DNA of 64,000 nt from an uncultured Actinomycetota bacterium. GTDB lineage: Bacteria > Actinomycetota > Actinomycetes > Mycobacteriales > Mycobacteriaceae. The translations under genes and the position numbers were made by a program. Positions 13,218 to 38,938 of this stretch are shown here, one piece after another (the first letter of the stretch is position 1; each line of letters opens with the position of its first letter). Under the pieces are notes generated by a model. It did no database searches. It saw only the letters and a list, made by a program, of their open reading frames with translations, and had not been told where the DNA came from. The stretch spans positions 36,248 to 100,247 of the forward strand of contig CAVUSK010000012.1 in assembly GCA_963744085.1 (NCBI GenBank), read 5' to 3'.

Positions 13218-13227
13218 TTTCTCTTTC

Positions 13228-13641: not shown

Positions 13642-13754
13642 GGCGTCACCTTCCAACACTAATTCGACTGATCCACCGATCGTCGCATCCTGCCCCGACA
13701 CCGCAGCTACGAACTCCGAAGCGGTCTCGCACGCCGACCCGCCACCGCACACGC

Positions 13755-14529: not shown

Positions 14530-15205
14530 ATTGAGCGCTGACATGGGTTTCCGCAGCTCGCCCCTTACGCGCTCTTGATCCGCGCCACACTGCGGGCCAT
14601 CGAACCGATCGCCTTGGCCAGCAGACCCGAATCGGTCTCGGATAGGACATCGCAGCCGGGATGACGGTGGTGTCGGCGCGAACCTTGTCGGTGCGCAGCA
14701 GCTTGGCCGCGGCCGCCTTGGCCAGCAGTGCCTCATTCAGTCCGGCGACCGCGTCCTCCCCGCAGCGAGTGGTGATCTTCATCAACGTCGTCGGGTGCGG
14801 CACCCGGGTACCGAACGGGATCCGGCAAAACCGCTGCCAGGAAATCGAATCGGATACTTCCCGGCACAACGACTCGTAACCCAGCCGGTACCGGAACTTC
14901 AGGAACATCAACCGCACATAGGTCTCCATCGCAATCGACGGCCGACCGATCCGGGCATCGAAATGCGCGGCGAAAGGACCGAAGAACACCGGGTCCTCCA
15001 GCAACGCATCCACCCGCCCCAACTCCACCGGCAGCACCAACAACTCCGGCGGCAGGACCGCATCCCACAACGTCGGCTGGTCGTTTACAGTTCTGAGCAC
15101 GATGGCCTCAATCCCTTCTCGCCAAGGGGTTGAGGCCATCTTCGCGCCCACGAACACCACCATCAGGGGACCGCAACGCCCCGACTTTTTCAGGTCGAAG
15201 TAGCT
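14530..15205 (-). mobile_element. ISNCY/IS5-like transposase, 3'-truncated by the adjacent IS3 end
   Basis: GTG at 15100; GRPSIAMETYVRLMFLKFRYRLGYESLCREVSDSISWQRFCRI...PHPTTL...RADTTV; probable terminal sequence gactttttcaggtcgaagtag at ~15184-15204. Confidence 0.75.
15101..15140 (-). promoter_or_regulatory. Stem-loop covering the transposase ribosome-binding site
   Basis: Perfect 11-bp arms gatggcctcaa/ttgaggccatc plus inner ccctt/aaggg, ending directly at the GTG start. Confidence 0.5.
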
Positions 15206-16703: not shown

Positions 16704-18119
16704 ATGGACCCGATGGAGCCGTTGGATGCGGCGATGATCACGGCGGAGCTGCTCTCCGACCCGCTGCACACCGCCGCGTTGCTGATCCTGTCTCCGCCCG
16801 CGGACTCCGGGTCCGGGTATGTCGACGAGCTCTATCAGGAGGCGCTGACCGACACCGCAGAACTGGATCCGCGATTTCGCCGGCACCCACACGTGGGCAT
16901 CGACACCGCAGGCCTTTGGGTGTGGCGTACCGACGACACCATCGACATGCGCGAGCATTTGCAGCGCCGAACACTGCCTGCGGGCGCAAATCGCGAAGTG
17001 CTGTGGAAGCTGATCAACGAGCTGCACAGCGTGCCGCTCGACCGGTCACGGCCGATGTGGATGGCGTATGTGATCGACGGTCTGGAGGGCGGTCGATTCG
17101 CGTTCTATATCAAGGTGCACCACACCGTGGTCGACGGTGTCGCCGGATTGAAGATGATCGCTGATGCGCTGACCACCGACCCCGAAAGCCGGTCAATGCG
17201 GCCGATCTATGCTATCGGCCCGAAGCAACCCGCCGAGCATGGTGCTACCTCACACGGACTGATCCCCAACCCGTTGTCACTCGTACGCGCGGCGCTGAAC
17301 GGCGTCACCTCGGGACTGGGCCTTGTTCGCCAAATAGCCCTCGGCGAAATATCAACAGTGCTCGCGAGTCTCGGGCCAGGGACTGCCGTTCTACCGTTCG
17401 GCGCCCCCTACACCAGGTTCAACGGCCGACTCGGCCCCGAGCGGACCTTCGCAGGGGGCAATTGGTCAAAATCGCGAATCCGCGCAGTCCAGAAGGCGGC
17501 CAGGGTGACCGGCAACGACGTGCTGACCGCCATAGTAGCGGGAGTGCTGCGGGAGTGGCTCACCGCGCATGGTGAGTTGCCGGACAAGTCGCTGGTAGCA
17601 ATCTGCCCGGTAACGGTGCGCGGTCGCGAGCACGCGACCGATGAGGACAGGCACGGAAACCTGTTCGGTTTGGAGTTGTGCCCGTTGGGCACCGAGATAG
17701 CCGACCCTGCCGAGCGGCTGGCCCACATCCATCGTGCGATGACGTGGGCAAAGCACCAGGTGGCGAGCCGCGGGTCGAACGCGACGATGCTGCTTCTCGC
17801 GCCGAGTATCGCGTCTACGGTCCTGTCGCCGATGATGCCGTTTGCGCCGCGGCTGCGCCGCGGCTACAACGTGTCGATCTCCAATGTTCCCGGGCCGCAG
17901 GCCGAGATGTATTGGAACGGCGCGCATCTAGAGGAAATCTATCCCGTGTCGACCGCCATCAACGGTCAGGCACTGAACGTGACGATATGCTCCTATGCCG
18001 ACCGCGTGACGTTCGGCTATGTTTCCGGCCGCCACGTGATGCCCGACATAGCGTCGCTGATACCGCTGACCGAGCGCGTCCTCGTTGATTTGGAGACCGC
18101 GGTCGCAGTGGCGACGTGA
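16704..18119 (+). CDS. Wax ester synthase/diacylglycerol acyltransferase (WS/DGAT, Tgs family)
   Basis: Catalytic HHTVVDG; PLDRSRPMW; NVSISNVPGP; ALNVTICSY. Confidence 0.95.
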   Translation: MDPMEPLDAAMITAELLSDPLHTAALLILSPPADSGSGYVDELYQEALTDTAELDPRFRRHPHVGIDTAGLWVWRTDDTIDMREHLQRRTLPAGANREVLWKLINELHSVPLDRSRPMWMAYVIDGLEGGRFAFYIKVHHTVVDGVAGLKMIADALTTDPESRSMRPIYAIGPKQPAEHGATSHGLIPNPLSLVRAALNGVTSGLGLVRQIALGEISTVLASLGPGTAVLPFGAPYTRFNGRLGPERTFAGGNWSKSRIRAVQKAARVTGNDVLTAIVAGVLREWLTAHGELPDKSLVAICPVTVRGREHATDEDRHGNLFGLELCPLGTEIADPAERLAHIHRAMTWAKHQVASRGSNATMLLLAPSIASTVLSPMMPFAPRLRRGYNVSISNVPGPQAEMYWNGAHLEEIYPVSTAINGQALNVTICSYADRVTFGYVSGRHVMPDIASLIPLTERVLVDLETAVAVAT

Positions 18120-18153
18120 AGTCGCCACCCATCAGAGGTGAGGAGATGCGCTC

Positions 18154-19008
18154 ATGGGTATCTACGCGATCACCGGATCGGGCTCCGGCATGGGCCGCAA
18201 GGCCGCGGAGAAGCTGCGCGATGCCGGCCACACCGTCATCGGCGTGGACATCAAGCAGGCGGACATCGTGGCCGATCTGTCGAGCGTCGAGGGACGCCGC
18301 GCCGCCGCCGACGGCGTGTTGGCAGCGTCCGGGGCCAGACTGGACGGCGCCGTTCTCGCAGCCGGTCTCGGCCCCGGCCAAGGACCTGACCGTCCGCGGT
18401 TGATCGCCCAGGTCAACTACCTCGGCGTCGTTGACCTCCTTGACGCGTGGCGCCCCGCACTGGCTGCCGCCGACCGCGCGAAAGTCGTTGTCTTCTCCAG
18501 CAACTCCACAACGACAACCCCCGTGGTTCCCGCACGCACCGTACGGGCATTCCTTGCGCGCGATGCCGAGAAGGCGGTCCGCACCACCCGATTGTTCGGC
18601 AAGAACGCTTCGGTGATCCTGTACGCCGCATCCAAGATCGCCGTCAGCCGTTGGGTTCGCCTCGAGGCAGTGAAAAGCGAGTGGGCTGGCGCAGGCATAC
18701 GCCTGAACGCTCTGGCTCCGGGCGCGATCATGACGCCCCTTCTGGAGGAGCAGCTGTCAACGCCGAAGCGAGCGAAACTCGTTCGTTCCTTCCCTGTCCC
18801 GGTCGGCGGTTTCGGCGATGCCGAGCAGCTGGCCGACTGGGTGCTCTTCATGCTGTCGGATGCTGCGGACTTCCTCTGCGGGAGCGTCGTATTCGTCGAT
18901 GGCGGAACGGACGCGTACTTCCGTGCCAACGACTGGCCGAGGCCTGTCCCGGCGTATCGTTTGTTGTCTTACTTCAAACGGTTCAGAGCCGGGGGTCGCC
19001 GGGAGTAA
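18154..19008 (+). CDS. SDR family oxidoreductase (3-alpha-hydroxysteroid dehydrogenase-like)
   Basis: ITGSGSGMG, VNYLG, YAASK, NALAPG, VDGG. Confidence 0.9.
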   Translation: MGIYAITGSGSGMGRKAAEKLRDAGHTVIGVDIKQADIVADLSSVEGRRAAADGVLAASGARLDGAVLAAGLGPGQGPDRPRLIAQVNYLGVVDLLDAWRPALAAADRAKVVVFSSNSTTTTPVVPARTVRAFLARDAEKAVRTTRLFGKNASVILYAASKIAVSRWVRLEAVKSEWAGAGIRLNALAPGAIMTPLLEEQLSTPKRAKLVRSFPVPVGGFGDAEQLADWVLFMLSDAADFLCGSVVFVDGGTDAYFRANDWPRPVPAYRLLSYFKRFRAGGRRE

Positions 19009-19089: not shown

Positions 19090-19418
19090 AAGGCCTCGCC
19101 TCGACATCGGCCGACATTTGATGCGGACAACTCACCGGACGATGCGACCGGTCCACCCAACCCCTCGAGGCCCTCGGCCTCATACCGGGCCAACCACGAG
19201 TGCAGTGTCTGGCGCGACACCCCTACCTTCGAAGCGACCTGCGAAATCGGCAACCCATCGCTGATCACCGCCAACACGGCCTGATACCTCTGCTGACCCA
19301 CGCTCGACTCCTCATCCATGGGAGTGTCAAGGATCAGCCGGAGTAACTGTCAAGCGTCAGCCGAAACACTGTCAGGCATCACTCGAAGCAAGAATGTCAA
19401 CGATCGGCCGAGCTCACA
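19090..19418 (-). mobile_element. IS481-family left-end remnant
   Basis: QRYQAVLAVISDGLPISQVASKVGVSRQTLHSWLARYEAEGLEGL; iterated tgtcaag.atcagccg motifs ending in caca. Confidence 0.8.
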
Positions 19419-19498: not shown

Positions 19499-19621
19499 GA
19501 CCAGGCGAAACGGTTAGCCAATTGGCCTAAATTGCCTGCGCGACAGCGGTTTTGGCTGTTACCGGTGCGGTTCCGGTACGCCCTGAGTACGGCTACGAAT
19601 CGCCCCCGGTCGCCGGGGTGA
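19499..19621. repeat. Element-end sequence, degenerate direct repeat of 29969-30092
   Basis: Shared blocks gaccaggcgaaacggt, ttccggtacgccct.agtacggctac.aatcg and cgccggggtga with conserved spacing. Confidence 0.8.
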
Positions 19622-21827: not shown

Positions 21828-22007
21828 ATGGAGGCATTCTTCAGGTACTCGAGCCGCAACAAGCTGGCGATTGAGGATCTCACCCGGACGCTTGAGGGCG
21901 CCCATGCGGGCTTTGGGCCGAATCATGCGGAGGGTTTCAGGCGGCCCGTCCTTCCCGTGCCGGACTCCGGTGGGCCGACACGGGCGCACGGCGCGTCGGC
22001 CCGATGA
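21828..22007 (+). pseudogene. 59-aa ORF resembling a collapsed TIR domain, coupled to the downstream gene
   Basis: RBS gaggag 7 nt before ATG; FFRYSSRNKLAIEDLTRTLE resembles TIR betaA-alphaA; RPVLPV resembles betaD; stop overlaps the next ATG (ATGA). Confidence 0.4.
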
Positions 22008-23776
22008 TCTCCCCAAGGTCCCTGGGACACCTCATCGCTGAATTCCGATGGGCTTTGCTCGGTGTGGCTACTATCATCGCGATTGCGCTTGGCTGGGTGG
22101 GATACACCGAGCACTTAAACGAGTTGTACGTCGAGGGAACACTTACGCATCCCCCTCAGGCGACCGACATCGCCTACGACACCTTCAAGCTATTCCTCCT
22201 GGGGTCGCCAGATAGGACCGGGCTACCGGTGACGATCGAGATTGCTCGCATCCTCGCGCCAATCGTGGCCGGTTGGGCCGCGCTGAGCGGGCTGGCTTTG
22301 CTGTTTCACGACCGCGTGCAACAGCTACGCATCCCGCTGATGCGGGGTCACGTCGTAGTCTGCGGGTTGGGCTACGTCGGCAGGGTGTTCCTTGACCACC
22401 TTCGACAGGCCGGCCGCCGGGTAGTCGTCATTGAGTCAGACCCCGCGAATCCGTCCCTAGAGCTATGCCGCAGTTGGAACGTCCCGGTCATAGTGGGCGA
22501 TGCAAGGCAAGATCGGACGCTGCGTGAGGCCGGGGTGCAGCGTGCGGCCCAACTCCTCGCGGTATGCCCGAACGACGCGGTGAACACCGAGATTGTTGCC
22601 ATCGCTCGGCGACTTCCGACCGGCCGCCGAAGCGGTGGGCTGCGATGTCTGGCTCGAATCGGTAACCCAGAGCTGTGCGCGTTGTTGCGGGTCCAAGAGG
22701 CCAACTATTCGGATGGTGCCTTATCGTCACTGGACTTCTTCAACCTTGACGAGCTCAGCGCGCGGTTGTGCCTCGACGAGTACCCGATCGAGGCCGAACG
22801 CGGCCAGCCGCACCTCCTCGTTAGTCGCTTTGATGGGCTGGCAACGTGGCTAGTGAAGCACGCAGCGTGGGGCTGGTATTCCGACCGCGCCGACGACACC
22901 CCACTATGGATCACGGTTGTCGACGACCTGGCCGCAGAGCGCGTTCGGGGGCTTCTCGACCAATACCCGGCACTTGAGCCGGTGTGTCAGTTCACTTACT
23001 CTTCGACACGCGTCCGTGATCTGCACCGACTCGAAGCGGTGTACGCCGACGCGGGAGCGCCACCGATAACGTGCGCCTATGTGAGCGCATACCGCGATGA
23101 AGACGCGATCGAGGCCGCGCTCGCGTTGCGCCATGAACTCGATTCGGCCGTCCCGATGGTCCTCGCGTTGTCGCGGGCGCAAGGGGTTGCCCGGCTCATC
23201 ACCGACGCTACTGCCAGCGGCGAGCTGACGAACGTTAACGTATTCCCGACGCTGGAGCGCACGTGCACGGCCGAGCTTGTCCTGGGCGGCTCGTTCGAAA
23301 GGATCGCAGTCGCCATCCACCGCCGCTGGTGCGCTGGGCAACTCGCCGCCGGCAAGGAGGCGCCGTCTTGGTCCGAGCTGGACGAGTCGCGCAAGGAGTC
23401 CAGCCGTGCTCAAGCTCGCGACATACCAGCCAAGTTGCGCAGCATCGGGTGCACCATCGCGCCTCTGCATGACATAAGCGCACCAGCGTTCGAATTCACC
23501 GACGACGAATTCGAGACACTCGCGATCGCCGAGCACAAACGTTGGGTAACCGAACGACTCAAGTCCGGCTGGCGGCTGGGGCCCAAAGACATTGAGCGGA
23601 AGACGTCGCCGTATCTGATTCCGTTCGAGGAGCTGCCGGGCGACATCGCCGACGCCGATCGCGACACGGTGCGTCAGATTCCCGATGCGCTCGCCTTACT
23701 CGATCTGAAAGTCATCCGGTCCGCCACGGGCTCGGCCCGCGTCGGGCAGCCGACGCTCGTCGGCGGTGACCGGTAG
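22004..23776 (+). CDS. Membrane protein: 2 TM + putative pore helix, RCK/TrkA_N nucleotide-binding domain, C-terminal RyR domain
   Basis: TM1 RWALLGVATIIAIALGWVGY; helix DIAYDTFKLFLLG; TM2; HVVVCGLGYVG and VIVGDAR; RyR-type AIHRRW, WSELDESRKESSR, LAIAEHKRW, GWRLG, SPYLIPFEEL. Confidence 0.85.
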   Translation: MISPRSLGHLIAEFRWALLGVATIIAIALGWVGYTEHLNELYVEGTLTHPPQATDIAYDTFKLFLLGSPDRTGLPVTIEIARILAPIVAGWAALSGLALLFHDRVQQLRIPLMRGHVVVCGLGYVGRVFLDHLRQAGRRVVVIESDPANPSLELCRSWNVPVIVGDARQDRTLREAGVQRAAQLLAVCPNDAVNTEIVAIARRLPTGRRSGGLRCLARIGNPELCALLRVQEANYSDGALSSLDFFNLDELSARLCLDEYPIEAERGQPHLLVSRFDGLATWLVKHAAWGWYSDRADDTPLWITVVDDLAAERVRGLLDQYPALEPVCQFTYSSTRVRDLHRLEAVYADAGAPPITCAYVSAYRDEDAIEAALALRHELDSAVPMVLALSRAQGVARLITDATASGELTNVNVFPTLERTCTAELVLGGSFERIAVAIHRRWCAGQLAAGKEAPSWSELDESRKESSRAQARDIPAKLRSIGCTIAPLHDISAPAFEFTDDEFETLAIAEHKRWVTERLKSGWRLGPKDIERKTSPYLIPFEELPGDIADADRDTVRQIPDALALLDLKVIRSATGSARVGQPTLVGGDR

Positions 23777-23822
23777 GCGACGCGCTAATCGTTTGCGTTG
23801 ACCCGACACTGCCGGATCGCCC

Positions 23823-25440
23823 TCAACGGATCCAAGCCGGCGGCGCGAGCTTCAGATCCTCAACGAGCAGCGCTTCCACGGTCTGAAGCGCTCCCTCGAC
23901 CCAGCCTTGATCGGTAGACCAGGCTTCACCGATGATATGCAACGCTGTGCCCGGCAGCGGCGTCCGCACCGCGGGCATGATTTCCCAGCTCTTCACGCCC
24001 TGCTTCCATGTGTGCCAGCCAGACACGTACGGTTCGCCACCCCAGTTGATGAAGCCGGCGGACGAGATCGCCGGCGTGTCCTTCAGGTCGTGCACAGTGA
24101 CGATCTGGCGGACCAGCTCAGTGGCCATCGGTCCTTTCGGATCGAGCATGGTCAAGCCGGTGGCGTTTGGCTGCTCCATGTTGCGTAAACCGGACCAGAA
24201 GTCGATCGCCGGCTCGTCGAAATAGGCCATCGTTGTGGCTCCAGACGATCCGTTCAGGCGGCCCGGCTCCGTGCCGAAATAATAGAGCTGCCGTGCCGGC
24301 AGATCGGTCACCGCGCGGCCGCTTGACAGCCCGAGCGAGCGCCACCAAGGCTCGGTGTGCGCGACGAAAGCCTTCGCCAGCGGCCTAGCCGTGATTGTGG
24401 CCAACAAACCCGCCGTGGCGGGCGCCTTCAAGGCGGGGCAGTCGGGAATGCGATCGATCGCTTGCTGCGGCATTGCGAGGATCACGCGCCGACTTTTCAC
24501 GCTGCGATTCCCCTCCGCCGTTGCGAAGACGAGCTCATGAGAGCCACCGACTTCTGGCGCCACCCGGAGTGACTCGAGACGATGCCGTCGGTTCACTGCG
24601 GTGCCCTTGCGTTGCAGCGCGGCGGCAAGCTCGTCGGGAAGTGCTGACATTCCCTTGGCGAGAGTCTTGTACTCAGGGTTGTTCGCGAAGTCGGCGAGAA
24701 GCCACGGCAACGCCTCAGCCGCATTCCATTCGCGGGGAATAGAGCAGTAACCGCCACCGTCGTCGACCAGCATCACCGCCTCGTAGGACAGATAGCGGTT
24801 CAAGAATTCCCAGAAGCCCCGGTCGCTGAGGGGTAATCCGTCGAGCGTCAGTTGTCGCTTGACGGTGTTCCATTTTTCAAGCCCGAGCGTTTCTGCGTCG
24901 GGCACGAGATCGCGAATCGCTCTGACCATCAGCGCGGTCGGGTCGTCGCCGACCTCGTTGTTGTTGAGCGCGTAGGGAATTGCGCTCGGGCGCGCGTAGT
25001 CGGCTGTGGTGAAGCGCTTGCCTCGAAGGTAGACGAGATTTTCCGGGCCGCCCATCGGAAACGACCGAACACCGATGCCGAGATGTTGCACTAGCGAGGC
25101 GATGATCCGCTGGCTGGTGAGGAAGCGCATACCACCGAACTCCGCCACGAGGCCATTTGTGCCGGGCATGCTCACGCTCAAGAGCCGGCCTCCGATCCGA
25201 TCGGTCGCCTCGAAGACTGCGATCCGATCGGGCGGAACGTGCCGTCGGCCAGGCGCCAGGCTGCATAGAGTCCCGCGATGCCACCGCCGATCACTACAGT
25301 GTCGAGCGTCCCATCGCCTGGCTTTCGAACCCGCAGGCGGCGCCGGCGACGCCCAGCATTGCGACATTCGAGGCGGCCGCGCCGATAAAACGACGGCGGG
25401 TGAGGACGCGACTCGTGTCGCCAGCCTGCAGTTCGGCCAC
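23823..25440 (-). pseudogene. Tat-exported (probably lipoprotein) flavin amine/L-amino-acid oxidase with two N-terminal frameshifts
   Basis: RBS gaggaa + GTG at 25440; TRRRFIG twin-arginine motif and GAAC; second frame DTVVIGGGIAGLYAAWRL; main frame FEATDRIGGR, AEFGGMRF, IIGEAWSTDQGWVEGALQT. Confidence 0.8.
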
Positions 25441-25556
25441 GGTTGTTTTCCTCGATCGACGGCCCCGGTGATCATCATGACCGCGGCGCCGGTTTGGCGG
25501 GCCAAGTTGACTGCATCAAGCCGTACTTGCCAAACGCATCGCCCGGATCGCCCGCC

Positions 25557-28500
25557 CTAGTCGGGTGGGACTGGCAAATCGGGACAGACCTTGATGTAGT
25601 CGATGTCCGGCGACACCCACTCATCCCACTGCTTGTGGCTCATGTTCGCAGTGAGCTTGTCGCACAGATCTTTTGGACTTGCAACCGCCGGCCAGACCCG
25701 GACGGTACGGTCCGCGCTCCCCGAAACGATGCGCTGGCCATCGGGACTGTACGCAACACTATCGACGTCGTCGGTGTGCGCGGTCAACGCATCACCAGCC
25801 TGTTGGCCGGACTCGACGTCCCACAACCGGATGGTTTCGTCGCGACTCGCGGAAGCGATCGTGCGGCCGTCCGGGCTGAACGCCAGCCCAACGACCGTGT
25901 CCTCATGGCCTTTCAGTGGCTTGCCGATTTTTTCAAGCCCGGCCGCATCCAACACCTGAATGACACCGTCGGCGCCGGCGGCTGCGACGCGGCGTGAGTC
26001 GGGGCTGAAGGTTACGGCCCATACAACTACTTCCGCGTCGCCGATCGTGACTGCCCGTATCAATTGACCTGTGTTGGCGTCCCACAACCTCACACTGCCG
26101 TTGTTGGCGCCCTCCATGCCGCCAGAGACGATGCGGTTCCCGTCGGGACTGAACGCAACACTGTGTACCAATTCGCCGTGGATCAGCGGCGCACCAATGG
26201 GAGTGCCCCTTTCGACATCCCACAACCGGACGGTGTTTCCACCGCCGATTACCAGACGGCGTCCATCGGGGCTGAACGCCACACTGGTCAGTGGCCCCTG
26301 CCCGGGACTGATCGGTGCACCAAGGGGCGTGCCGGTGTTCGCGTCCCATATCCGGACGGTGCCATCGGCGCCAGCGGTGGCGAGACGCCGTCCGTGCGGG
26401 CTGAAAACGACGCTGGACAGCGGCTGGCCGCTGCCCATGAGCGGCTTGCCAATCGGGTGGCCGTTGTCTGCGTTCCACAAGCGCGCAGTGCCGCCATCAC
26501 CCGCCGAAGCGATGCGATGCCCGTCAGGGCTCACCGCCACACTCGACACTCCTCCGATGTGGCCAAAGAGAGGCCGACGTATGCCGACATCCCACAACCG
26601 GATCATCCCGTCCTGCGATCCCGACAGTAGGCGGGTTCCGTCGGGACTGAACGACAACGTCCACACCGCGCTCTTGTGGCCCAGCATGGGGGGACCGAGC
26701 ATCTGTCTGGTGTCGACATCCCACAGCCGCACCGCGCCGTCACCACTTCCGTCAGCAAGCCGGTGGCTGTCGGGGCTGAACGCCACGCTGAGCACCTGGG
26801 TTCCGTGACCGGCCAGGGGCTCGCCGATCGGCTGGCCAGTTTCGGCGTCCCACAGCTGCACGTCCCCGTCGCCACTCGCCGAGGCGAATTGGCGGCCATC
26901 GGGGCTGAACGCCACGTCGAACACGTCGACCACTTCGCCCTCGTGAACCCTGTGCGGAGGACCGATCTGCTGGCCGGTGCTGACGTCCCACAAGCGCACC
27001 GTCCCGTCGGAGCTGCCACTGACGAGGCGCCGTCCGTCGGGGCTGAATTCCACGGTGTGGACCCTGCCGGGATGTCTCAGTGGTTGGCCGATGGGTTGGC
27101 CGGTGTTGGCGTTCCACAGCCGCACAGTGGTGTCGATGCTGCCGGAGGCGATCATGAGCCCGTCCGGGCTGAACGCCACCGCCCACACCTCGTCTTGATG
27201 GCCTGTCATCGGCGGGCCGATCGGGTCTCCGGTGTCCGCGTTCCAGAGCCGTACGGTGCGATCGTCACTTACGGATGCGATCCGGTGCCCGTCGGGACTG
27301 AACACCGCGTCGTTAACCCAATCAGCATGTCCGATCATGTCGTGGCCGACTTGTTGGCCGGTCTCAGTGTCCCACAAGCGCAACCGTCCATCATCGCCTC
27401 CAGTGACGAAGCGGCGACCTTGAGGGCTGAAGACGGTAGCAGGGCTGAAGACGGCACCGAAGATCGCCCTCGACGTGTCGATGAGCTTGAGGGTGTTGAA
27501 GGTCCTGACCGCGACGGAGTACAGATCTTGCTCAAAAGTCCTCGGAGAGAGTGCGTTCGCGGCAAGTAATTCCTGCAAGGCCCTGGCATCACTGCCCGGC
27601 CTACTGCTATCCAAGATGCCGTTCGACTCGGAGACCAGCCGCACGCTCGTCGCCTGACGGAACCGTTCTTGCGCCTGACCACGAGCGCTCATCGCGAAGC
27701 CGAATCCAACCACGGCGGCCACAGCGACTACCGCTGTAATTGCAAGAACAGTACGCATAATCCGCGATCGCTTGCGCAAGTCGGTCGCATGCGCTTCGGC
27801 AACTGCTTGCCGTTCTTGCGCATTGCGTAATTCGGCATCCCGACGTTCTTCTTCCGCCTTTGCCCGCTCGTTCTCGCATTGTCGAGACGCGTCGAGGTAT
27901 TCGCGAACAGGATTCATACGTTGGGTGAAAGTGGTTGAGCCCACAACATTTTCGGCATCGGCAAGACGGGAACCAGTGAGGAGCCACGCCGGGTCTTTGC
28001 TGTTGCTTCTCCACGCCGCGTCGGCACGCTCGACGTCATCGGCCACCTGGAGTTCATGGCGTTGCTCGCGAAGCCAGTCTGCCACCTCATCCCACTGGCG
28101 CAGCAGGCTTTCCAGGGCGACCTCGACCACTACTTGGCCGTCGCGCTGGTCCTTAATCAACAGCCGCTTGGCGACCATTGCGTCGATCAACGGTCTACTT
28201 TCCTCGGGTAGGTCGTCATACCGGGCCATCCGACGCATCGGCTGGTCATTATCCGGGTTCACTGTGGCGAGCCAGGGAATGAAAGCCGCCCGCAGACAGT
28301 CAAGTTGGTGGCGCCGTTGGTCCGGATCGGTCGCAAGAACCTCATTGATCTCCGTCTCGACGACACGGCGCATTCCACCCATCGCCTCGTACTGCTCGAC
28401 GGTCAACTCACCCGTCGAGCCGTAGTCGGTGTACAGTCGTGCCAGCGTCAACGACAGCATCGGCAGTGTGTCGGCACCCTCGGCGGCGTCAACGAGAAGC

Positions 28501-29771
28501 CGCTCCACCAAGTCTGGTGAAATTGCGAGGCGGTGGCCACCTTCGCTCGCACGAGCCGCCGGGCCCGTAATCACCTCCTTGAACTGCGTCGAGGGCATTG
28601 GCTTGAGGTCATCGAAAACTCTTGCCTCCACACCAGCCAGTTCGGGATGTGTCTGCATGACCTCATACCGGTCAGTCCGAATGGTGGCCACCACGATCAG
28701 GTTCAGCGGTTGGAGGTCGATTCGTGCCGTCAGCAATCGAATCAGCGACAACAGTTCCGTCCCTTGGGCTCCCGCGTCAGCGGAGAACAATTCCTCGGCT
28801 TGGTCCAAGGGCAGTATCAACGTCGGAGGGGCCGGTTTTTCATCATCGCGAACCGGATCCGGTAACCGATCCGCCGCTGTCTTCTGGATTTCGATCAGCA
28901 ACTCGCGCAGCCGCGCGATGTCGCCCTTGCATGCGGTCTTGATTTCGCCGAGGCTTGGTGCTGATAGGCCCAGCCTGTCTCGAGCATGCCAAATGGCCGC
29001 TGCCAGGCCGACATCCCCCGTGAGCGCGTTGCGACCGGGCCGGACGATGCCCAACAATGCGAAACGTCGATCTTCGCGGGCCAGGCGCGGCAGGATACCC
29101 GCGCGAAGAAACGACGACTTACCTGTGCCCGACGGACCCAACACGACGAACAGCGACTTCGTTTCAGCCAGCCTCATGCCGCGTAGCTCATCCAGCCCGT
29201 GCACGATTGCCGCATCCCGGCCAAAGAACACGGCGGCATCGACCTGTTCGAATGGCTCCCAGCCGCGATATGGAGCCCGACCCAGGTCGCCCGGCGGCGG
29301 CCATGCGAACGAATGCGCGCTGATGCCGGTCCCGCGAATGGCGTCTCGTAACCGGTACAAGCCAGCGGTGGCAAACATCACCGGTGGTCCGCTGGGCAGA
29401 TCGATCGAGGTCATGTCACCCTCGCCGAACAGGTCGCACCGCTGCCACTCCGACGTCAAGTCATCCCCGGCCGAACGTTCGAGGCGGGCACACAAAATCT
29501 GCTTGTTCAGATTCTCCGCAACGCGGTATTCGGTCTTGCACTCATGGGACATTTCCCAATTCCTTGACAGGAGGCAGACCACGACTTCACATTTGGCACT
29601 CGCCTGCTGCAGTCTGTCCTTCCATCGCTCTCCCGGTCGGAGCCCCACTTCAGGATCGATGTCGAGGAATATCTCAGTCGCCAGCGGAGGCTCCTGTTCG
29701 ACCAGCCAGCGTTTTAAGGCCAACGCCTCGCGCTCGTCGAGACTCGAATGGCTGAGGAAAATTCGCGACAT
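25557..29771 (-). CDS. TIR - STAND NTPase (nSTAND1-like) - TM helix - 14 WD40 repeats
   Basis: TIR IFLSHSS...IFLD...VVVCLLSRNW...CKTEY; Walker A VVLGPSGTGKSSFLRAG; Walker B LILPLDQAEELF; LPMLSLTLARLY; VEVALESLLRQW; TM VLAITAVVAVAAVVGFGF; 14 SPDG...LW repeats. Confidence 0.93.
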   Translation of the reverse strand: MSRIFLSHSSLDEREALALKRWLVEQEPPLATEIFLDIDPEVGLRPGERWKDRLQQASAKCEVVVCLLSRNWEMSHECKTEYRVAENLNKQILCARLERSAGDDLTSEWQRCDLFGEGDMTSIDLPSGPPVMFATAGLYRLRDAIRGTGISAHSFAWPPPGDLGRAPYRGWEPFEQVDAAVFFGRDAAIVHGLDELRGMRLAETKSLFVVLGPSGTGKSSFLRAGILPRLAREDRRFALLGIVRPGRNALTGDVGLAAAIWHARDRLGLSAPSLGEIKTACKGDIARLRELLIEIQKTAADRLPDPVRDDEKPAPPTLILPLDQAEELFSADAGAQGTELLSLIRLLTARIDLQPLNLIVVATIRTDRYEVMQTHPELAGVEARVFDDLKPMPSTQFKEVITGPAARASEGGHRLAISPDLVERLLVDAAEGADTLPMLSLTLARLYTDYGSTGELTVEQYEAMGGMRRVVETEINEVLATDPDQRRHQLDCLRAAFIPWLATVNPDNDQPMRRMARYDDLPEESRPLIDAMVAKRLLIKDQRDGQVVVEVALESLLRQWDEVADWLREQRHELQVADDVERADAAWRSNSKDPAWLLTGSRLADAENVVGSTTFTQRMNPVREYLDASRQCENERAKAEEERRDAELRNAQERQAVAEAHATDLRKRSRIMRTVLAITAVVAVAAVVGFGFAMSARGQAQERFRQATSVRLVSESNGILDSSRPGSDARALQELLAANALSPRTFEQDLYSVAVRTFNTLKLIDTSRAIFGAVFSPATVFSPQGRRFVTGGDDGRLRLWDTETGQQVGHDMIGHADWVNDAVFSPDGHRIASVSDDRTVRLWNADTGDPIGPPMTGHQDEVWAVAFSPDGLMIASGSIDTTVRLWNANTGQPIGQPLRHPGRVHTVEFSPDGRRLVSGSSDGTVRLWDVSTGQQIGPPHRVHEGEVVDVFDVAFSPDGRQFASASGDGDVQLWDAETGQPIGEPLAGHGTQVLSVAFSPDSHRLADGSGDGAVRLWDVDTRQMLGPPMLGHKSAVWTLSFSPDGTRLLSGSQDGMIRLWDVGIRRPLFGHIGGVSSVAVSPDGHRIASAGDGGTARLWNADNGHPIGKPLMGSGQPLSSVVFSPHGRRLATAGADGTVRIWDANTGTPLGAPISPGQGPLTSVAFSPDGRRLVIGGGNTVRLWDVERGTPIGAPLIHGELVHSVAFSPDGNRIVSGGMEGANNGSVRLWDANTGQLIRAVTIGDAEVVVWAVTFSPDSRRVAAAGADGVIQVLDAAGLEKIGKPLKGHEDTVVGLAFSPDGRTIASASRDETIRLWDVESGQQAGDALTAHTDDVDSVAYSPDGQRIVSGSADRTVRVWPAVASPKDLCDKLTANMSHKQWDEWVSPDIDYIKVCPDLPVPPD
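25680..27460 (-). repeat. 14 WD40 coding repeats (double beta-propeller)
   Basis: 14 recurrences of [FVY]SP[DQH][GS]...[LIV]W-type units, also visible as DNA repeats (gggctgaacgcc, tcccacaa). Confidence 0.9.
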
Positions 29772-29968
29772 ATCGTCCTCTTGCGGCCGGTTAGCTCGGA
29801 GGGTAAACCTCTCGTCGAGTTAAAAAGTTGCTTTGCCGTAAATCCTCGGCAGCCTCATAGCCGCAATAACCTCAATCCATGACCTCCGGGCCTGGACCGG
29901 GCGACGCCGCCGCGCCGCATGAGGCGGAGCCACACCACGGTGCGATCGCCAACAAACCGGCAGTCTAT

Positions 29969-30092
29969 GACCAGGCGAAACGGTCAGCCGAATCGGATCA
30001 AACCACCTGTAAGACAGAACTTTTCGCCGCTGCCGGTACGGTTCCGGTACGCCCTCAGTACGGCTACAAATCGGCCCTGGACGCCGGGGTGA
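29969..30092. repeat. Element-end sequence, degenerate direct repeat of 19499-19621, lacking an adjacent att core
   Basis: gaccaggcgaaacggtcagcc...ttccggtacgccctcagtacggctacaaatcg...cgccggggtga. Confidence 0.8.
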
Positions 30093-30221: not shown

Positions 30222-31192
30222 ATGTTTCTAAAGGTGAAGGTACCGCCGGATCTAATCGGCGGAGGCGTCGATGAGGGTTTCGGGAAAGTGGCCGACGTCT
30301 TCCGTCGGAATCTGAGCAGCGGTCGGGAGATCGGAGCCGCTGTCGCCGTCTACGTTCACCGCCGCTGACACTCGACGACTTGGCCAACCCGATGCGGATG
30401 TCTGCGAAGCTCGCGGCGCAGCGCCCCGCTTAGGCTCCTGGGACGAGACACGGCTACCACGCGATCACGATCGGCTGGTACGAAAGTGAACTGATCCGCC
30501 GAACCGACTCGGCAGGAAGGTCACTCGGCCAGTTCTTCGCCGACGAGGTAGCCGAGCCACTCGGTTTGGATTTCTACATCGGGTTGCCCGCGTTGGTGGA
30601 CCGCAACCACCTCGCGTACGTCCACGGCATCTCCCTACCGGAGATGGTGTTGCACCTCAATACGTTGCCGCCACGTTTTGCGTTCAGCGTGCTGAGCCCT
30701 CGCAGCCTGTCGGCGCGATCATTCGCCGTTCCCGGTCTGCGCTCCTCCGCCGAAGAGGTTAACCGTGAAGCAGTACAGGCAGTTGAAATGCCCGGCTTCA
30801 ACGGCATGGGTAACGCAAGGGCGGTGGCCAAGCTGTATGGCTCAGTAGCGATAGGTGGCTCCGAACTTGGGATGACCGCCGCAACTCTCGACGCTCTCAT
30901 GATGCCCGCTACGCCGCCAACGGACGGCGTGCGCGACAAGGTATTGCATACCGACACGATCTACCCGCTTGGCTTCGTAAAGCCTTTCCCGAACTGGGTC
31001 TTCGGTTCCTCACAGAAGGCGTTCGGCACCTGTGGCACGGGAGGCTCGTTCGGCTTCGCCGATCCGCATACCGGTATCGGTTTCGCCTACGTGATGAACA
31101 GAATGGGCTTTCACATGTGGAGCGACCCACGCGAACTCGCGCTTCGCCACACCCTCTTTCACGACATCCTCGGCGCGAGACCGCAGAAGTAA
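30222..31192 (+). pseudogene. Serine hydrolase (beta-lactamase-family esterase) with internal deletion and stops
   Basis: GGVDEGFGKVADVFRRNL...IGAAVAVY, then a jump past the SxxK region; GYHAITIGWY; C-terminal AFGTCGTGGSFGFADP...FAYVMN. Confidence 0.8.
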
Positions 31193-33692: not shown

Positions 33693-33769
33693 GCCGCGTC
33701 GAGCTCTCACTGGCACACTTTGTACAGCACGGCCAGGCGATGCGTTCCAGGGTCGTGGCCAGAGCCCGT

Positions 33770-34001
33770 CGAGACCCTCGGCCTCATAGCGGGCCAACCA
33801 GGTGTGCAGCGGCTGGCGCGACACCCCCACCTTCTCGGCGACTTGCGACACCGACGAACCGTCCGCGATGACAGCCATCGCGGCCTGATACCTCTGCTCT
33901 GCCACGCTCAACTCCCTCATCCACGGAGTGTCAAGCATCAGCCGAAACACTGTCGCGCATTACCCGAAACCGAAACGTCAAGCATCAGCCGAGGTAATAC
34001 A
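33770..34001 (-). mobile_element. IS481-family left-end remnant
   Basis: MRELSVAEQRYQAAMAVIADG...VSRQPLHTWLARYEAEGLDGL; iterated tcaagcatcagccga motifs. Confidence 0.8.
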
Positions 34002-34004: not shown

Positions 34005-35323
34005 TGAACCGCCCCGGCATGTCCGGAGACTCTGGTGTGTCCCGGGTTGCACGCAGTCGGTTTGCTTGATTCTTGGTCACGACGTCCGTCGAAGGAGCCG
34101 TGTCCGTGCCGAAGCGTTATCCCGAGGAGTTCCGCCGCAAAGTGCTCGATCTGGTGGCCGCTGGCCGCCCTATCGCGCAGATCGCTGCCGATCTGGGCAT
34201 CAGTGACCAGACTATCTACGGCTGGCGCAAACAAGAACTGATCGACACCGGACAGTTGCCCGGTCTTAACCGTGCCGAACAGGCTGAGCTGGCCGCGGCC
34301 AACAAACGCATCCGCGAGCTGGAAACCGAGGTGGCGATCCTGAAAAGGGCCCGTGAGCTGCTGAGGGAGCCACACGACCCAAAAGACGGTACGCGGCCAT
34401 AGCCACGATGGCCGCAGAAGGACTGCCCGTGCAGATGGCGTGCCGACTGCTGTCGGTGGCCGAATCGGGCTACTACGAGTGGCGCCGCCGGCCACCGTCG
34501 GCCCGGGCGGTTCGCCACGCCTGGCTGACCGAGCAGATCCGGGCCGTGCACACCGCCTCACGCGGCACCTACGGCGTCCGCCGGGTGCATGCCGAGCTGA
34601 CCCTCGGACTGGGGCTACAGGTCGGCCACAACCAGGTCGAGCTGCTGATGACACGCGCAGCGATCAAAGGCCTTCCGGGCAACCGCCGTCCTCGGCCGCG
34701 CAATGAGACGCCGACCGCGTCGGATCTGGTCGAGCGGATGTTCACCCGCGAGGCACCAAATCGTTTGTGGGTCACCGACATCACCGAACACCGCACCTAC
34801 GAAGGCAAGGTGTATTGCGCGGTCGTGCTCGATACCTTCTCCCGCCGCGTTGTCGGCTGGTCGATCGACTCGAGCCAGACCGCCGCGCTGGTCACCAATG
34901 CGCTGAGTATGGCCATCGCCAACCGTGATCCGCAGGCCGGTGGGATCATCCACTCCGACCACGGCGTGCAATTCACCTCCTGGGCCTTCACCGACCGCGC
35001 AATACGCTCCGGTCTGGTGCCCTCGATGGGGTCAATTGGCGACTGCTACGACAACGCGATGATCGAATCCTTCTGGGGAAGAATGCAAACCGAGCTACTT
35101 AACCGAAAACGGTGGAGGACACGGATTGAGCTGGCCAATGCGATCTTCGATTACCTGGAGATCTTCCACAACCGTCAACGGCGTCATTCCGCCCTAGGGA
35201 TGCGCACTCCGATAGAGTTCGAATTGCTACACCAATCCACCCAACCCGTGGCCTGAAACCAAGTATGGCGACACCGCCGAACCGGGGATACATCAAAGTC
35301 TCCGGACTCACCGGGGCGGTTCA
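34005..35323 (+). mobile_element. Apparently intact IS3-family element with IS6110-type terminal inverted repeats
   Basis: IRL tgaaccgccccggcatgtccggagactc; IRR ...gtctccggactcaccggggcggttca; orfA 34106-34402 and orfB to 35256 (WVTDITE, HSDHGVQF, DNAMIESFW); -1 overlap at cccaaaag; no target duplication. Confidence 0.93.
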
Positions 35324-36990: not shown

Positions 36991-37093
36991 AAGCGCTTGT
37001 GGACGCGGTGTGGACGTAGAGCCGGTTTCGCGGGCCGTGGCGCCCGGGCGCCGGACTGGCAAAATAGCCCTCTAGCTGCATCTTTGTGTTGTG

Positions 37094-37133
37094 GGGCGGG
37101 CGGGACTCGAACCCGCGACCAACGGATTATGAG
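37094..37133. repeat. att-like direct repeat of the tRNA(CAT) 3' half
   Basis: 40-bp exact match to 39647-39686, ending just past the anticodon. Confidence 0.95.
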
Positions 37134-38870: not shown

Positions 38871-38938
38871 AAATCGCTCTTATTACCGCTGCGATCACAA
38901 TTCCGATTAAATACGCCCAGATAATCACGCGCTCAAGT

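What the first reader, a model, noticed from the sequence alone, without database searches (positions are those of the whole stretch)
21828..29771. Candidate TIR-messenger system: membrane-anchored TIR-STAND-WD40 receptor paired with an RCK/RyR channel-like effector
Seen: one att/end-bounded island unit carries a TIR-STAND-TM-WD40 gene and a convergent gene encoding 2 TM + pore-like helix + Rossmann RCK + RyR domain; a Tat amine oxidase lies between them and a TIR-like mini-ORF overlaps the channel gene start. Established: bacterial TIR domains consume NAD+ and, in Thoeris, make ADPR-derived messengers that activate separate effectors, including membrane effectors; STAND/Avs proteins are pattern-recognition receptors; RCK domains gate channels by binding adenine nucleotides. 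Inference: ligand binding at the propellers oligomerises the STAND, the TIR makes a nucleotide signal, and the RCK-gated pore depolarises the cell (abortive infection or conflict signalling). I know of no named system with this pairing, but cannot exclude one without a search.
Basis: partly seen in the sequence, partly recalled or inferred. Interest (0 to 1): 0.85.

Follow-up and report, generated by a model that had tools for sequence, protein, structure and literature searches.

The report
TIR sensor paired with RyR-domain channel
A membrane-anchored TIR "alarm" protein sits next to a channel-like protein whose tail resembles the ryanodine-receptor domain recently shown to bind TIR-made cyclic ADP-ribose, and this pairing recurs across many bacteria, so it is probably an undescribed signal-and-effector pair.

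Summary
The two main genes are as described. Gene 22004-23776(+) encodes a 2TM pore-like module, tandem RCK domains and a two-repeat RyR domain. Gene 25557-29771(-) encodes TIR-nSTAND1-TM-WD40. The extras do not hold. The amine oxidase is a frameshifted pseudogene, present in only 3 related loci. The "TIR-like mini-ORF" is a 26-residue resemblance conserved in one relative. No att sites were found.

The pairing is not chance. Among species-representative genomes with enough flank, 19 of 27 RCK/RyR loci have a TIR gene within 5 kb; in metagenomes, 8 of 12. Partner TIR proteins have at least seven architectures: STAND-TM-WD40, TM-WD40, TM-PknH_C, CHASE2, TPR, RDD and NACHT. The pairing also holds in low-GC contigs whose RCK/RyR proteins are only 26-35% identical.

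Two 2026 preprints show that phage RyR-domain proteins bind or cleave 2'/3'cADPR. The window protein keeps 4 of the 6 binding residues.

Homologous TIR-STAND sensors elsewhere pair with SLATT or patatin, which looks like effector swapping. PADLOC and the 29-type Thoeris survey do not contain this pairing.

Verdict: a probable new Thoeris-like variant, untested experimentally.

The parts
22004..23776 (+). RCK/RyR channel-like protein gene (590 aa), the proposed effector/receiver
   Evidence: Pfam TrkA_N 4.8e-19 and RyR 2.6e-10. AF2 pLDDT 85, pTM 0.76. Foldseek: GsuK, TrkA, MthK and RyR3 Repeat12. 307 homologues, mostly Mycobacterium.
22046..22303 (+). 2TM pore-like module: TM1 (res 15-43), short pore-type helix (53-65), loop LGSPDRTGLP, TM2 (76-100). 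No TVGYG filter.
   Evidence: Secondary structure of the AF2 model. Full-length alignment to the GsuK channel, about 585 columns. No Pfam Ion_trans_2 hit at E<1. The loop is poorly conserved in the family.
22352..22702 (+). RCK1 / TrkA_N Rossmann domain with G121-x-G123-x-x-G126 and D146
   Evidence: Pfam. The motif residues are conserved in almost all canonical homologues and lost in the divergent paralogues. PDB profile hits TrkA, Kch and KefC RCK domains.
22811..23248 (+). Second Rossmann-like (RCK2-like) lobe, without a GxGxxG motif
   Evidence: AF2 strand/helix pattern, residues 270-415. Foldseek matches to the tandem-RCK proteins TrkA and GsuK.
23294..23719 (+). Two-repeat RyR (Repeat12-like) domain. 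Repeat 2 carries H511, W514, K528, D552 and R553; repeat 1 carries H439 and W442.
   Evidence: Pfam RyR. PDB profile E 3.6e-20 to RyR repeats. Foldseek to human RyR3 Repeat12 over about 180 columns and to phage RyR-domain proteins. Residue mapping to RyR Tad gp68.
25557..29771 (-). TIR-nSTAND1-TM-WD40 gene (1404 aa), the proposed sensor and signal generator
   Evidence: Pfam. Orthologues of 1404-1412 aa lie convergent to RCK/RyR in L001, L003-L005, L007 and L107.
29421..29762 (-). TIR_2 domain (res 4-117) with putative catalytic Glu81 (CKTEY)
   Evidence: Pfam TIR_2 3.1e-12. E81 is invariant across 8 partner TIRs of different architecture. It aligns with the (W)xxxEL motif of solved TIRs.
27990..29273 (-). 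nSTAND1 NTPase (res 167-594), Walker A GPSGTGK218SS, Walker B LPLDQAEE
   Evidence: Pfam nSTAND1 9.8e-68. Motifs located.
27690..27761 (-). Single transmembrane helix (res 671-694) after a coiled, charged segment; RKRSR on its N side
   Evidence: Sequence. The same position is hydrophobic in TIR-TM-WD40 and TIR-TM-PknH_C partners.
25683..27437 (-). About 14 WD40 blades (two propellers), inferred extracytoplasmic, plus a C-terminal tail with two Cys (1370, 1396)
   Evidence: Pfam WD40, 13 stretches, E 2e-130. 129-nt periodic DNA repeats. Topology is inferred from the single TM helix and the cytoplasmic requirements of TIR and the NTPase. Cys positions.
23823..25440 (-). Tat-signal flavin amine oxidase PSEUDOGENE (two 1-bp deletions at about 25320 and 25240); not part of the conserved pair
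   Evidence: Pfam Amino_oxidase 2.7e-26. Three-frame reading. Alignment to the intact L004 and L031 genes. Present only in the window, L004 and L031.
29879..29957 (+). First 26 codons of a VIT1-family gene that follows the TIR-STAND gene in relatives; truncated here
   Evidence: tblastn and blastn breakpoints. Pfam VIT1 on the L001 orthologue.
21828..22007 (+). 59-codon mini-ORF; not a supported feature
   Evidence: No Pfam hit for the overlapping ORFs. 7-bit match of 26 residues to a TIR profile. Upstream DNA is alignable only with L004.

Best explanation
This is a two-gene TIR-messenger module.

1. The TIR-nSTAND1-TM-WD40 protein is a membrane receptor. Its propellers face outward. Its NTPase and TIR lie in the cytoplasm.
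2. When triggered, NTPase-driven assembly brings TIR domains together.
3. The assembled TIR domains convert NAD+ into a cyclic-ADP-ribose-type nucleotide.
4. The neighbouring protein receives that nucleotide at its C-terminal RyR (Repeat12-like) domain.
5. The tandem RCK ring transmits the change to a 2TM pore that lacks a K+ selectivity filter, giving ion leak and depolarisation.

Shown here: the domain anatomy, the intact catalytic and binding motifs, and the recurrent linkage of RCK/RyR genes with TIR genes.

Taken from the literature: RyR domains bind cADPR isomers.

Inferred: the identity of the signal, gating of the pore, and the biological role. The role could be phage or abortive defence, or envelope or extracellular sensing; I rate these about equally likely.
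For: Linkage:
- A TIR ORF lies within 5 kb in 19 of 27 GTDB species loci and 8 of 12 metagenome loci that have at least 3 kb of flank on both sides. Density is 8.5 TIR ORFs per 100 kb within 5 kb, against 1.3 further out.
- Independent precomputed Pfam calls confirm the pairs in Mycobacterium sp. ITM-2016-00318 and M. paraffinicum.
- Partner TIR proteins have unrelated architectures: STAND-TM-WD40, TM-WD40, TM-PknH_C, CHASE2-TIR, TPR-TIR, TIR-RDD and TIR-NACHT.
- Gene orders vary: convergent, tandem or divergent.
- Genomic contexts differ.
- The pairing persists in low-GC contigs at 26-35% identity.
- TIR-linked members are spread over the RCK/RyR tree.
- One metagenomic ORF fuses TIR-nSTAND1 to RCK-RyR.

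Chemistry:
- Glu81 is invariant and aligns with the Glu of the conserved (W)xxxEL motif in solved TIR domains; that this Glu is the catalytic residue is taken from my own knowledge of SARM1.
- Phage RyR domains bind 3'cADPR, 2'cADPR and cADPR at nM affinity or cleave them (PMC13232231; 10.64898/2026.06.04.730250).
- The window protein keeps H511, W514, K528 and D552, which is 4 of 6 RyR Tad contact residues. L094, L086 and L098 homologues keep 6 of 6.

Channel: AF2 and Foldseek place it with GsuK, MthK and TrkA.

Effector swapping: TIR-nSTAND1-WD40 homologues (TIR 58-63% identical) sit next to SLATT, the type VII Thoeris effector class, or patatin.
Against: - No experiment of any kind supports it.
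- About 30% of RCK/RyR loci have no TIR gene within the fetched flanks.
- Several TIR-nSTAND1-WD40 homologues stand alone, as expected of self-contained NADase STANDs.
- The genes are convergent here, not an operon.
- The pore loop has no selectivity filter and is poorly conserved, and Pfam Ion_trans_2 is not matched. Conduction is therefore unproven.
- The RyR Tad residues H154 and K170 are Ser and Ala here.
- Eukaryotic Repeat12 also binds ATP and ADP (PDB titles), so the ligand could be an ordinary adenine nucleotide.
- There is no PADLOC hit.
- Neighbours are metabolic or core genes rather than a defence island.
- The family is not found in viral contigs.
Confidence: 0.55

Rival explanations
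1. The TIR-STAND-WD40 protein is a self-contained, Avs-like suicide NADase whose TIR is the effector. The RCK/RyR protein is a modulator, not the killer. Its RyR domain might sequester or hydrolyse stray TIR products, acting as an off-switch or autoimmunity brake like the phage RyDEP or sponges. Alternatively, its RCK and RyR domains might read the fall in NAD+ or ATP and adjust ion balance.
For: - Many TIR-nSTAND1-WD40 homologues lack any RCK/RyR neighbour.
- TIR-STAND proteins are treated as NAD-depleting effectors in the Thoeris survey, which discarded them.
- RyDEP is a glycosidase whose catalytic H/D dyad has equivalents here, H511 and D552.
- RCK1 keeps GxGxxG...D.
- GsuK binds NAD and ADP (PDB titles).
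Against: - Partner TIR proteins without any STAND (TM-PknH_C, TM-WD40, TPR, RDD) are just as tightly linked. This fits a diffusible signal better than a one-protein suicide device.
- A brake would not need a membrane pore module and a gating ring.
- SLATT and patatin neighbours of homologous sensors look like interchangeable effectors.
Confidence: 0.22
2. The mechanism is the same, but the role is not immune. The pair is a transmembrane signalling pathway, with an outside sensor, a cytoplasmic TIR second messenger and a ligand-gated channel. It would serve envelope stress, nutrient or cell-cell sensing, analogous to mycobacterial receptor kinases such as PknH and PknD.
For: - Partner sensors are classical extracytoplasmic domains: PknH_C and CHASE2.
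- The TM-PknH_C pair sits in a conserved core context, leuA-ask-asd-DUF4185, in five to six species.
- Flanks in the window are metabolic.
- There is no PADLOC hit and the family is absent from viral contigs.
Against: - TIR arrays, STAND/NACHT partners, effector swapping with SLATT and patatin, duplicated sensors (L002, L022, L031, L107) and variable contexts of the STAND type are hallmarks of conflict systems.
- Mycobacteriophages carry RyR-domain anti-Thoeris enzymes, implying that hosts use cADPR signalling against them.
Confidence: 0.3
3. There is no functional link. An ordinary Kch/GsuK-like potassium channel merely lies beside a TIR-STAND gene.
For: - The genes are convergent with separate promoters.
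- About 30% of family members have no TIR neighbour.
- Sources annotate the family as a 'potassium channel family protein'.
Against: The pairing recurs with at least seven TIR architectures, several gene orders, different contexts and distant taxa. By my own assumption, TIR genes are rare (a few per genome), so adjacency in about 70% of loci cannot be chance.
Confidence: 0.04

Closest known systems
Thoeris anti-phage systems (types I-XI; ThsB TIR plus effector ThsA/C-L)
   Same: A TIR protein with an intact catalytic Glu sits next to a separate effector that carries a domain able to bind TIR-made ADPR-derived nucleotides. Effector swapping occurs among homologous TIR sensors (SLATT, patatin, RCK/RyR).
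   Different: - The TIR is fused to a membrane receptor (STAND-TM-WD40, TM-PknH_C, CHASE2...) instead of being a small ThsB.
- The effector sensor would be a RyR domain, not SLOG, Macro or the other known sensor domains.
- There are no PADLOC Thoeris hits beyond ThsB at E 0.006.
- TIR-STAND proteins were explicitly excluded from the 2025 survey.
- Neither 'RyR' nor 'TrkA' appears in that survey's text or held tables.
Type X Thoeris (ThsB plus 'ion channel' effector ThsK; Bacillus sp. BH32, Vibrio)
   Same: A TIR gene sits beside a small K-channel-like membrane effector, and the signal is still unknown.
   Different: - The effector is about 208 aa with only a weak Ion_trans_2 match and no RCK or RyR domain.
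- It has no sequence similarity to the window protein (BLASTP E 2.2).
- Its TIR belongs to the ThsB_TIR family PF08937, not TIR_2.
Phage RyR-domain anti-Thoeris proteins (RyDEP of mycobacteriophage DyoEdafos; RyR Tad gp68 of Pectobacterium phage CB1)
   Same: Same Pfam family (PF02026). The window's model has the same fold as other phage RyR-domain proteins, one of them a homologue of gp68. The binding residues are shared: H-x-x-W, K and D.
   Different: - The phage proteins are small and soluble, forming homodimers of one repeat.
- Here two repeats sit in one chain at the end of a membrane RCK protein encoded by the host.
- The H154 and K170 equivalents differ.
- The function would be reception, not evasion.
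GsuK / MthK / Slo-type RCK-gated K+ channels and the TrkA gating ring
   Same: 2TM pore topology followed by tandem RCK domains, with RCK1 carrying GxGxxG...D. These are the best Foldseek matches (E 4e-10).
   Different: - There is no TVGYG selectivity filter.
- Pfam Ion_trans_2 is not matched.
- There is an extra C-terminal RyR domain.
Avs / bacterial NLR-like antiviral STAND proteins with TIR effectors
   Same: N-terminal TIR, central STAND NTPase and C-terminal repeat sensor.
   Different: - It belongs to the nSTAND1 clade.
- A transmembrane helix lies between the NTPase and the WD40 propellers, so the sensor is outside the cytoplasm.
- There is no PADLOC Avs match.
- It has a conserved partner gene.
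Animal cADPR to ryanodine-receptor Ca2+ release (SARM1/CD38 products acting on RyR)
   Same: A TIR-type enzyme product, a Repeat12-type RyR domain and an ion channel occur in one pathway.
   Different: - In animals the site of cADPR action on RyR is unresolved.
- The animal channel core is unrelated to a 2TM-RCK channel.
- Only the Repeat12 domain is homologous.

Membership tests
Thoeris-type TIR signalling system | TIR domain with the catalytic glutamate | tested here: met
   TIR_2 E 3.1e-12. E81 is invariant in 8 diverse partner TIRs. It aligns with the EL motif of PdTIR, Cat1 and TLR2.
Thoeris-type TIR signalling system | Separate effector gene conserved next to the TIR gene | tested here: met
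   19/27 and 8/12 loci have a TIR ORF within 5 kb. Independent Pfam-annotated contexts agree.
Thoeris-type TIR signalling system | Effector carries a domain that binds the TIR-made nucleotide | tested here: inconclusive
   The RyR domain is homologous to phage cADPR binders and keeps 4 of 6 contact residues (PMC13232231; 10.64898/2026.06.04.730250).
Thoeris-type TIR signalling system | Recognised by existing defence-system models | tested here: not met
   PADLOC gives no hit for RCK/RyR, and only ThsB E 0.006 and a WD40-driven HEAT-ARM hit for the sensor.
Thoeris-type TIR signalling system | Infection-triggered signal production and phage protection | not testable with these tools
   Needs expression, phage challenge and LC-MS.
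Type X Thoeris (ion-channel effector) | Small ThsB_TIR (PF08937) gene(s) flanking an Ion_trans_2-like effector of about 200 aa | tested here: not met
   The L037 context is ThsB_TIR, a 208-aa gene, then ThsB_TIR. The effector's only hit is Ion_trans_2 at E 0.001. BLASTP to the window protein gives E 2.2.
RyR domain / Repeat12 family (PF02026) | Significant match to the family model, and the fold | tested here: met
   40.8 bits against a cutoff of 27.4. PDB profile E 3.6e-20. Foldseek to RyR3 Repeat12 E about 1e-6 over about 180 columns.
RyDEP-type cADPR glycosidase | Catalytic His/Asp dyad (H75/D117) in the pocket | tested here: inconclusive
   H511 and D552 occupy the H129 and D171 positions of gp68. 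The DyoEdafos sequence was not retrieved. Most phage homologues with these residues bind but do not cleave.
RCK-gated K+ channel (GsuK/MthK) | 2TM pore with pore helix followed by RCK domain(s) | tested here: met
   AF2 topology. Foldseek to full-length GsuK E 3.7e-10. TrkA_N Pfam hit.
RCK-gated K+ channel (GsuK/MthK) | K+ selectivity filter T-V-G-Y-G | tested here: not met
   The loop reads FLLGSPDRTGLPVT and is variable across the family. No Ion_trans_2 hit at E<1.
Antiviral STAND (Avs/bNLR-like) | Effector, STAND NTPase with Walker A/B, and repeat sensor in one chain | tested here: met
   TIR_2, nSTAND1 (E 1e-67) and WD40. GPSGTGK218SS and LPLDQAEE.
Antiviral STAND (Avs/bNLR-like) | Match to Avs models; cytoplasmic sensor recognising phage proteins | tested here: not met
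   No PADLOC Avs hit. A TM helix separates the NTPase from the propellers, which places the sensor outside by inference.

The most novel reading that the evidence does not exclude
Bacteria possess a complete TIR to cyclic-ADP-ribose to RyR-domain-gated ion channel pathway, driven by Toll-like transmembrane receptors (outside sensor, one TM helix, cytoplasmic TIR). [quoted passage not shown] If so, the bacterial system would give the long-disputed cADPR-RyR connection a testable structural basis.
Probability: 0.3. Interest if true: 0.95.

Novelty: new variant of a known kind. Interest (0 to 1): 0.82.

Why it matters
- It would add a new effector class to TIR signalling systems: a ligand-gated, channel-like protein with a RyR sensor domain.
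- It would add a new sensor class: membrane receptors with outside propellers, PknH_C or CHASE2 domains and a cytoplasmic TIR.
- It would identify the cellular counterpart of the phage RyR-domain anti-Thoeris proteins reported in 2026. That suggests phages borrowed or mimic the host receptor domain.
[quoted passage not shown] This makes the old question of how cADPR acts on RyR approachable in a simple two-gene system.
- It would point to unexplored nucleotide signalling in mycobacteria and Nocardia.

Tried and rejected
- Amine oxidase as a module part: rejected. It is a pseudogene here and absent from most related loci.
- TIR-like mini-ORF: rejected. It gives 7 bits over 26 residues and is conserved only in L004.
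- att or integrase-bounded island: not supported. Only a 124-nt repeat pair was found, with no copy in other loci.
- PADLOC classification: nothing useful.
- Identity with type X Thoeris: rejected after fetching a type X locus.
- Retrieval of DyoEdafos RyDEP by tblastn against phage records failed. RyR Tad gp68 (NC_048653) was used instead.
- Sequence-profile search for a K-channel pore in PDB: no hit for residues 1-110. Only the structure comparison supports it.
- Viral contigs: no relative found.
- Exact look-up of the window protein's own contig: not on record.
- Literature searches for RyR or TrkA together with TIR in bacteria found only the phage papers.
- Figure 1C of the Thoeris survey (the list of putative effectors) is not held. 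A differently named entry cannot be fully excluded.

Full report
**What is in the window**

The finding spans three long ORFs.

- ORF 22004-23776(+) encodes a 590-aa protein with Pfam TrkA_N (E 4.8e-19) and RyR (E 2.6e-10).
- ORF 25557-29771(-) encodes 1404 aa with TIR_2 (E 3.1e-12 on the isolated N-terminus), nSTAND1 (9.8e-68) and 13 WD40 stretches.
- This protein has Walker A GPSGTGK218SS, Walker B LPLDQAEE, and one hydrophobic helix at residues 671-694 preceded by RKRSR.
- Between the two genes, on the minus strand, lies a flavin amine oxidase (PF01593, 2.7e-26).
- PADLOC recognises none of the three as a known defence protein. It gives only ThsB at E 0.006 and a WD40-driven hit.

**Corrections to the observation**

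- The amine oxidase is broken. Its Tat signal (TRRRFIGAAA), its FAD motif (GGGIAGL) and its body lie in three different frames.
- Aligned with the intact orthologues in L004 and L031, the window has two 1-bp deletions at about 25320 and 25240.
- The amine oxidase occurs only in the window, L004 and L031. In L001, L003, L005 and L007 the two main genes abut directly. It is an accessory insert and a pseudogene here.
- The mini-ORF at 21828 has no family hit. Only 26 residues align to a TIR profile, at 7 bits. Its DNA aligns with one relative only.
- No att-like repeats flank the unit.
- DNA homology with relatives runs from about 22000 to 29957. It ends 26 codons into a VIT1 gene that is intact in relatives.
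- Twelve bases further on starts a 124-nt repeat whose other copy lies at 19499.

**Anatomy of the channel-like protein**

An AlphaFold model built from 86 homologues is confident (pLDDT 85, pTM 0.76). It shows these parts:

- TM1 (residues 15-43)
- a short pore-type helix (53-65)
- a 10-residue loop
- TM2 (76-100)
- an RCK1 Rossmann lobe with G121-x-G123-x-x-G126 and D146
- a second Rossmann-like lobe (270-415)
- a two-repeat RyR domain (431-572)

The structure and sequence comparisons agree with this.

- Foldseek's best PDB matches are the tandem-RCK proteins GsuK (full length, about 585 columns, E 3.7e-10) and TrkA, then MthK and Slo1.
- For the C-terminus, the best match is human RyR3 Repeat12 (about 180 columns, E about 1e-6).
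- A sequence profile finds the RyR repeats (E 3.6e-20) and RCK domains, but nothing for residues 1-110.
- The loop where TVGYG would sit reads LGSPDRTGLP. It is variable in the family, and Ion_trans_2 is not matched.

The protein is therefore channel-like in fold but is not a canonical K+-selective channel. Conduction is an inference.

**Is the pairing real?**

The 590-aa protein has 307 detected homologues, mostly Mycobacterium. I fetched 35 loci from species-representative genomes and 62 from metagenomes. I then searched all six frames with a TIR profile built from the partners.

- With at least 3 kb of flank on both sides, 19 of 27 genome loci and 8 of 12 metagenome loci have a TIR ORF within 5 kb.
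- TIR ORF density is 8.5 per 100 kb within 5 kb, against 1.3 further out.
- Some apparent negatives are contigs too short to reach the TIR end.

The partners are not one protein. They include:

- TIR-nSTAND1-TM-WD40 (the window clade, L008, L024, L029)
- TIR-TM-WD40 without a STAND (L015, L022, L023 from Nocardia arizonensis, L035)
- TIR-TM-PknH_C (M. paraffinicum and four to five other species)
- CHASE2-TIR
- a TIR protein with zinc ribbons

The TIR-TM-PknH_C partner lies in the core context leuA-ask-asd-DUF4185.

Low-GC contigs whose RCK/RyR proteins are only 26-35% identical show further partner types:

- two TPR-TIR genes directly upstream on the same strand (L094)
- four to five tandem TIR-RDD genes plus a TPR-TIR (L086)
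- a TIR-NACHT (L077)

Further points:

- Gene order is convergent, tandem or divergent, and flanking genes differ.
- TIR-linked members are spread over the RCK/RyR tree.
- Precomputed Pfam annotation of independently called genes confirms the pairs in the complete genome of Mycobacterium sp. ITM-2016-00318 (two tandem sensors) and in M. paraffinicum.
- One metagenomic ORF of 1129 aa fuses TIR-nSTAND1 directly to RCK-RyR, without pore or propellers. This would be a Rosetta-stone fusion, but I could not check reads.

**The reverse test**

Homologues of the TIR-STAND part, with TIR domains 58-63% identical, do not always have an RCK/RyR neighbour.

- Four of the six non-fused homologues examined stand alone.
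- One has a SLATT gene immediately upstream, in Nocardia xishanensis.
- One is followed by an unknown gene and a patatin, in Crystallibacter degradans.

SLATT is the effector class of type VII Thoeris, which responds to canonical cADPR (10.64898/2025.12.03.692087). This pattern is effector swapping, which is typical of signalling defence systems. It also shows that the sensor family can work without RCK/RyR.

**Which domain receives the signal?**

The literature points to the RyR domain.

- PMC13232231 shows that the mycobacteriophage protein RyDEP, a PF02026 protein, cleaves 2'/3'cADPR. Six of eight phage homologues tested bind these molecules, and the two that were measured do so with nM affinity. 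The pocket residues are H75, W78, H100 and D117, and they are shared with RyR Repeat12.
- 10.64898/2026.06.04.730250 shows that RyR Tad (gp68 of Pectobacterium phage CB1) binds 3'cADPR, 2'cADPR and cADPR through H129/W132, K147/H154 and K170/D171.

I fetched gp68 and aligned it.

- Repeat 2 of the window protein has H511, W514, K528 and D552, with S535 and A551 at the other two positions.
- Repeat 1 keeps H439 and W442.
- TIR-linked homologues in L094, L086 and L098 keep all six residues.
- H, W, K/R and D are conserved through almost the whole family, whether or not a TIR gene is nearby.
- The model's RyR part also matches phage RyR-domain proteins in BFVD, including the Yersinia phage TG1 homologue of gp68.

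On the sender side, Glu81 (CKTEY) is invariant among eight partner TIRs of different architecture. It aligns with the Glu of the (W)xxxEL motif in solved TIR domains. That this position is catalytic in SARM1-type NADases is established knowledge that I recall, not something I tested here.

**Topology (inference)**

TIR needs NAD+ and the NTPase needs ATP, so the N-terminal 670 residues must be cytoplasmic. With one TM helix, the propellers are outside. This is like the PknH_C and CHASE2 domains of the other partners, which their Pfam descriptions call extracellular or extracytoplasmic sensors. The only two Cys in the C-terminal 770 residues lie in the tail, which is compatible with a disulfide. 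The system therefore probably reads something at the envelope, not a cytoplasmic phage protein.

**Most likely mechanism**

An outside cue triggers STAND-driven clustering of TIR domains. The TIR domains make a cADPR-type nucleotide. The RyR domain of the neighbouring protein binds it. The RCK ring opens a non-selective pore, causing depolarisation.

- The linkage is shown. I rate a functional link at about 0.85.
- The messenger step rests on homology and literature (about 0.6).
- Gating and ion flux are inferred (about 0.45).
- The overall confidence given for the best explanation is 0.55.

The biological role is open.

- For conflict or defence: STAND/NACHT partners, TIR arrays, duplicated sensors, swapped effectors and phage anti-cADPR RyR proteins in mycobacteriophages.
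- For physiological signalling: the core-genome context of the PknH_C type, metabolic neighbours, no PADLOC hits and absence from viral contigs.

**Comparison with known systems**

- It works like Thoeris but is not a member of any described type.
- The 2025 survey of 29 types discarded TIR-STAND proteins. Its text and held tables have no occurrence of RyR or TrkA.
- The one channel-type effector, type X, is an unrelated 208-aa protein beside ThsB_TIR genes.
- The sensor resembles Avs/bNLR proteins in layout, but has a TM helix and no model match.
- The effector resembles GsuK or MthK, but lacks the filter and adds a RyR domain.
- I could not see Figure 1C of the survey, and subscription literature is not searchable here. 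Prior description under another name cannot be fully excluded.

**Verdict**

The core observation is real and the pairing is far beyond chance. The extras (amine oxidase, mini-ORF, att ends) are dropped. It is best classed as a new variant of TIR-messenger systems and is of high interest, because it ties bacterial TIR signalling to a RyR-domain channel.

Noticed in passing
L100 2515-5904 (ENA ERZ27256608 contig k141_2543313): A single 1129-aa ORF carries TIR_2, nSTAND1, TrkA_N and RyR. The STAND C-terminus joins directly to the RCK start ('RLPRMRGHVVVCGLG'), with no 2TM pore, no TM helix and no WD40. It is either a Rosetta-stone fusion or an assembly chimera.
   Followed up: partly
L103 4933-9504 (Nocardia xishanensis) and L102 6001-11468 (Crystallibacter degradans): Homologous TIR-nSTAND1-WD40 genes are paired with a SLATT gene (DUF4231/SLATT_3/SLATT_1), or with an unknown 493-aa gene plus patatin. 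This suggests interchangeable effectors for this sensor family.
   Followed up: partly
L086 1026-12511 (low-GC metagenome contig; near-identical L092): An array of four to five tandem TIR_2-RDD membrane genes and a TPR-TIR_2 gene lies upstream of a TrkA_N/RyR gene. A second, 858-aa RyR-domain protein follows.
   Followed up: partly
L012 14534-16942, L028 9501-12110, L033 2176-4641: Divergent paralogues of 800-870 aa carry a RyR domain plus a C-terminal PGDYG domain and a degenerate RCK motif. They often lie in tandem with a canonical RCK/RyR gene. Their function is unknown.
   Followed up: no
L002, L022, L031, L107: The TIR sensor gene is duplicated in tandem next to a single RCK/RyR gene (two copies of about 1400 aa or about 930 aa). 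Some copies are disrupted.
   Followed up: no
window 29879-29957 and 29969-30092; 19499-19621: A VIT1-family gene is cut off after 26 codons. Twelve bases later begins a 124-nt element, 80% identical to a copy at 19499-19621. A 225-nt repeat links 19161-19381 with 33765-33987. No copies occur in the other loci.
   Followed up: partly
window 30566-31192: This beta-lactamase-family ORF covers only profile positions 186-313, so it is a truncated gene. Together with the amine oxidase and VIT1, it makes three damaged genes within 8 kb.
   Followed up: no
window 34073-36215 and 12765-14532: Two IS3-family (rve) transposase ORFs lie back to back (34408-35256 + and 35379-36215 -), with a related ORF at 13765-14499. 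A 458-nt, 92% direct repeat at 12765-13220 and 14076-14532 flanks about 850 nt.
   Followed up: no
window 37000-40000: G+C drops to 0.54-0.57. A Phage_integrase-family fragment (38159-38803, -) lies beside tRNA-Met (39644-39718, -). This is probably the remnant of an integrated element.
   Followed up: no
window 8766-11672: An MMPL-family transporter gene (968 aa, E 2.5e-211) lies upstream, and WS/DGAT and SDR genes lie at 16704-19008. These indicate a mycobacterial lipid-metabolism neighbourhood rather than a defence island.
   Followed up: no
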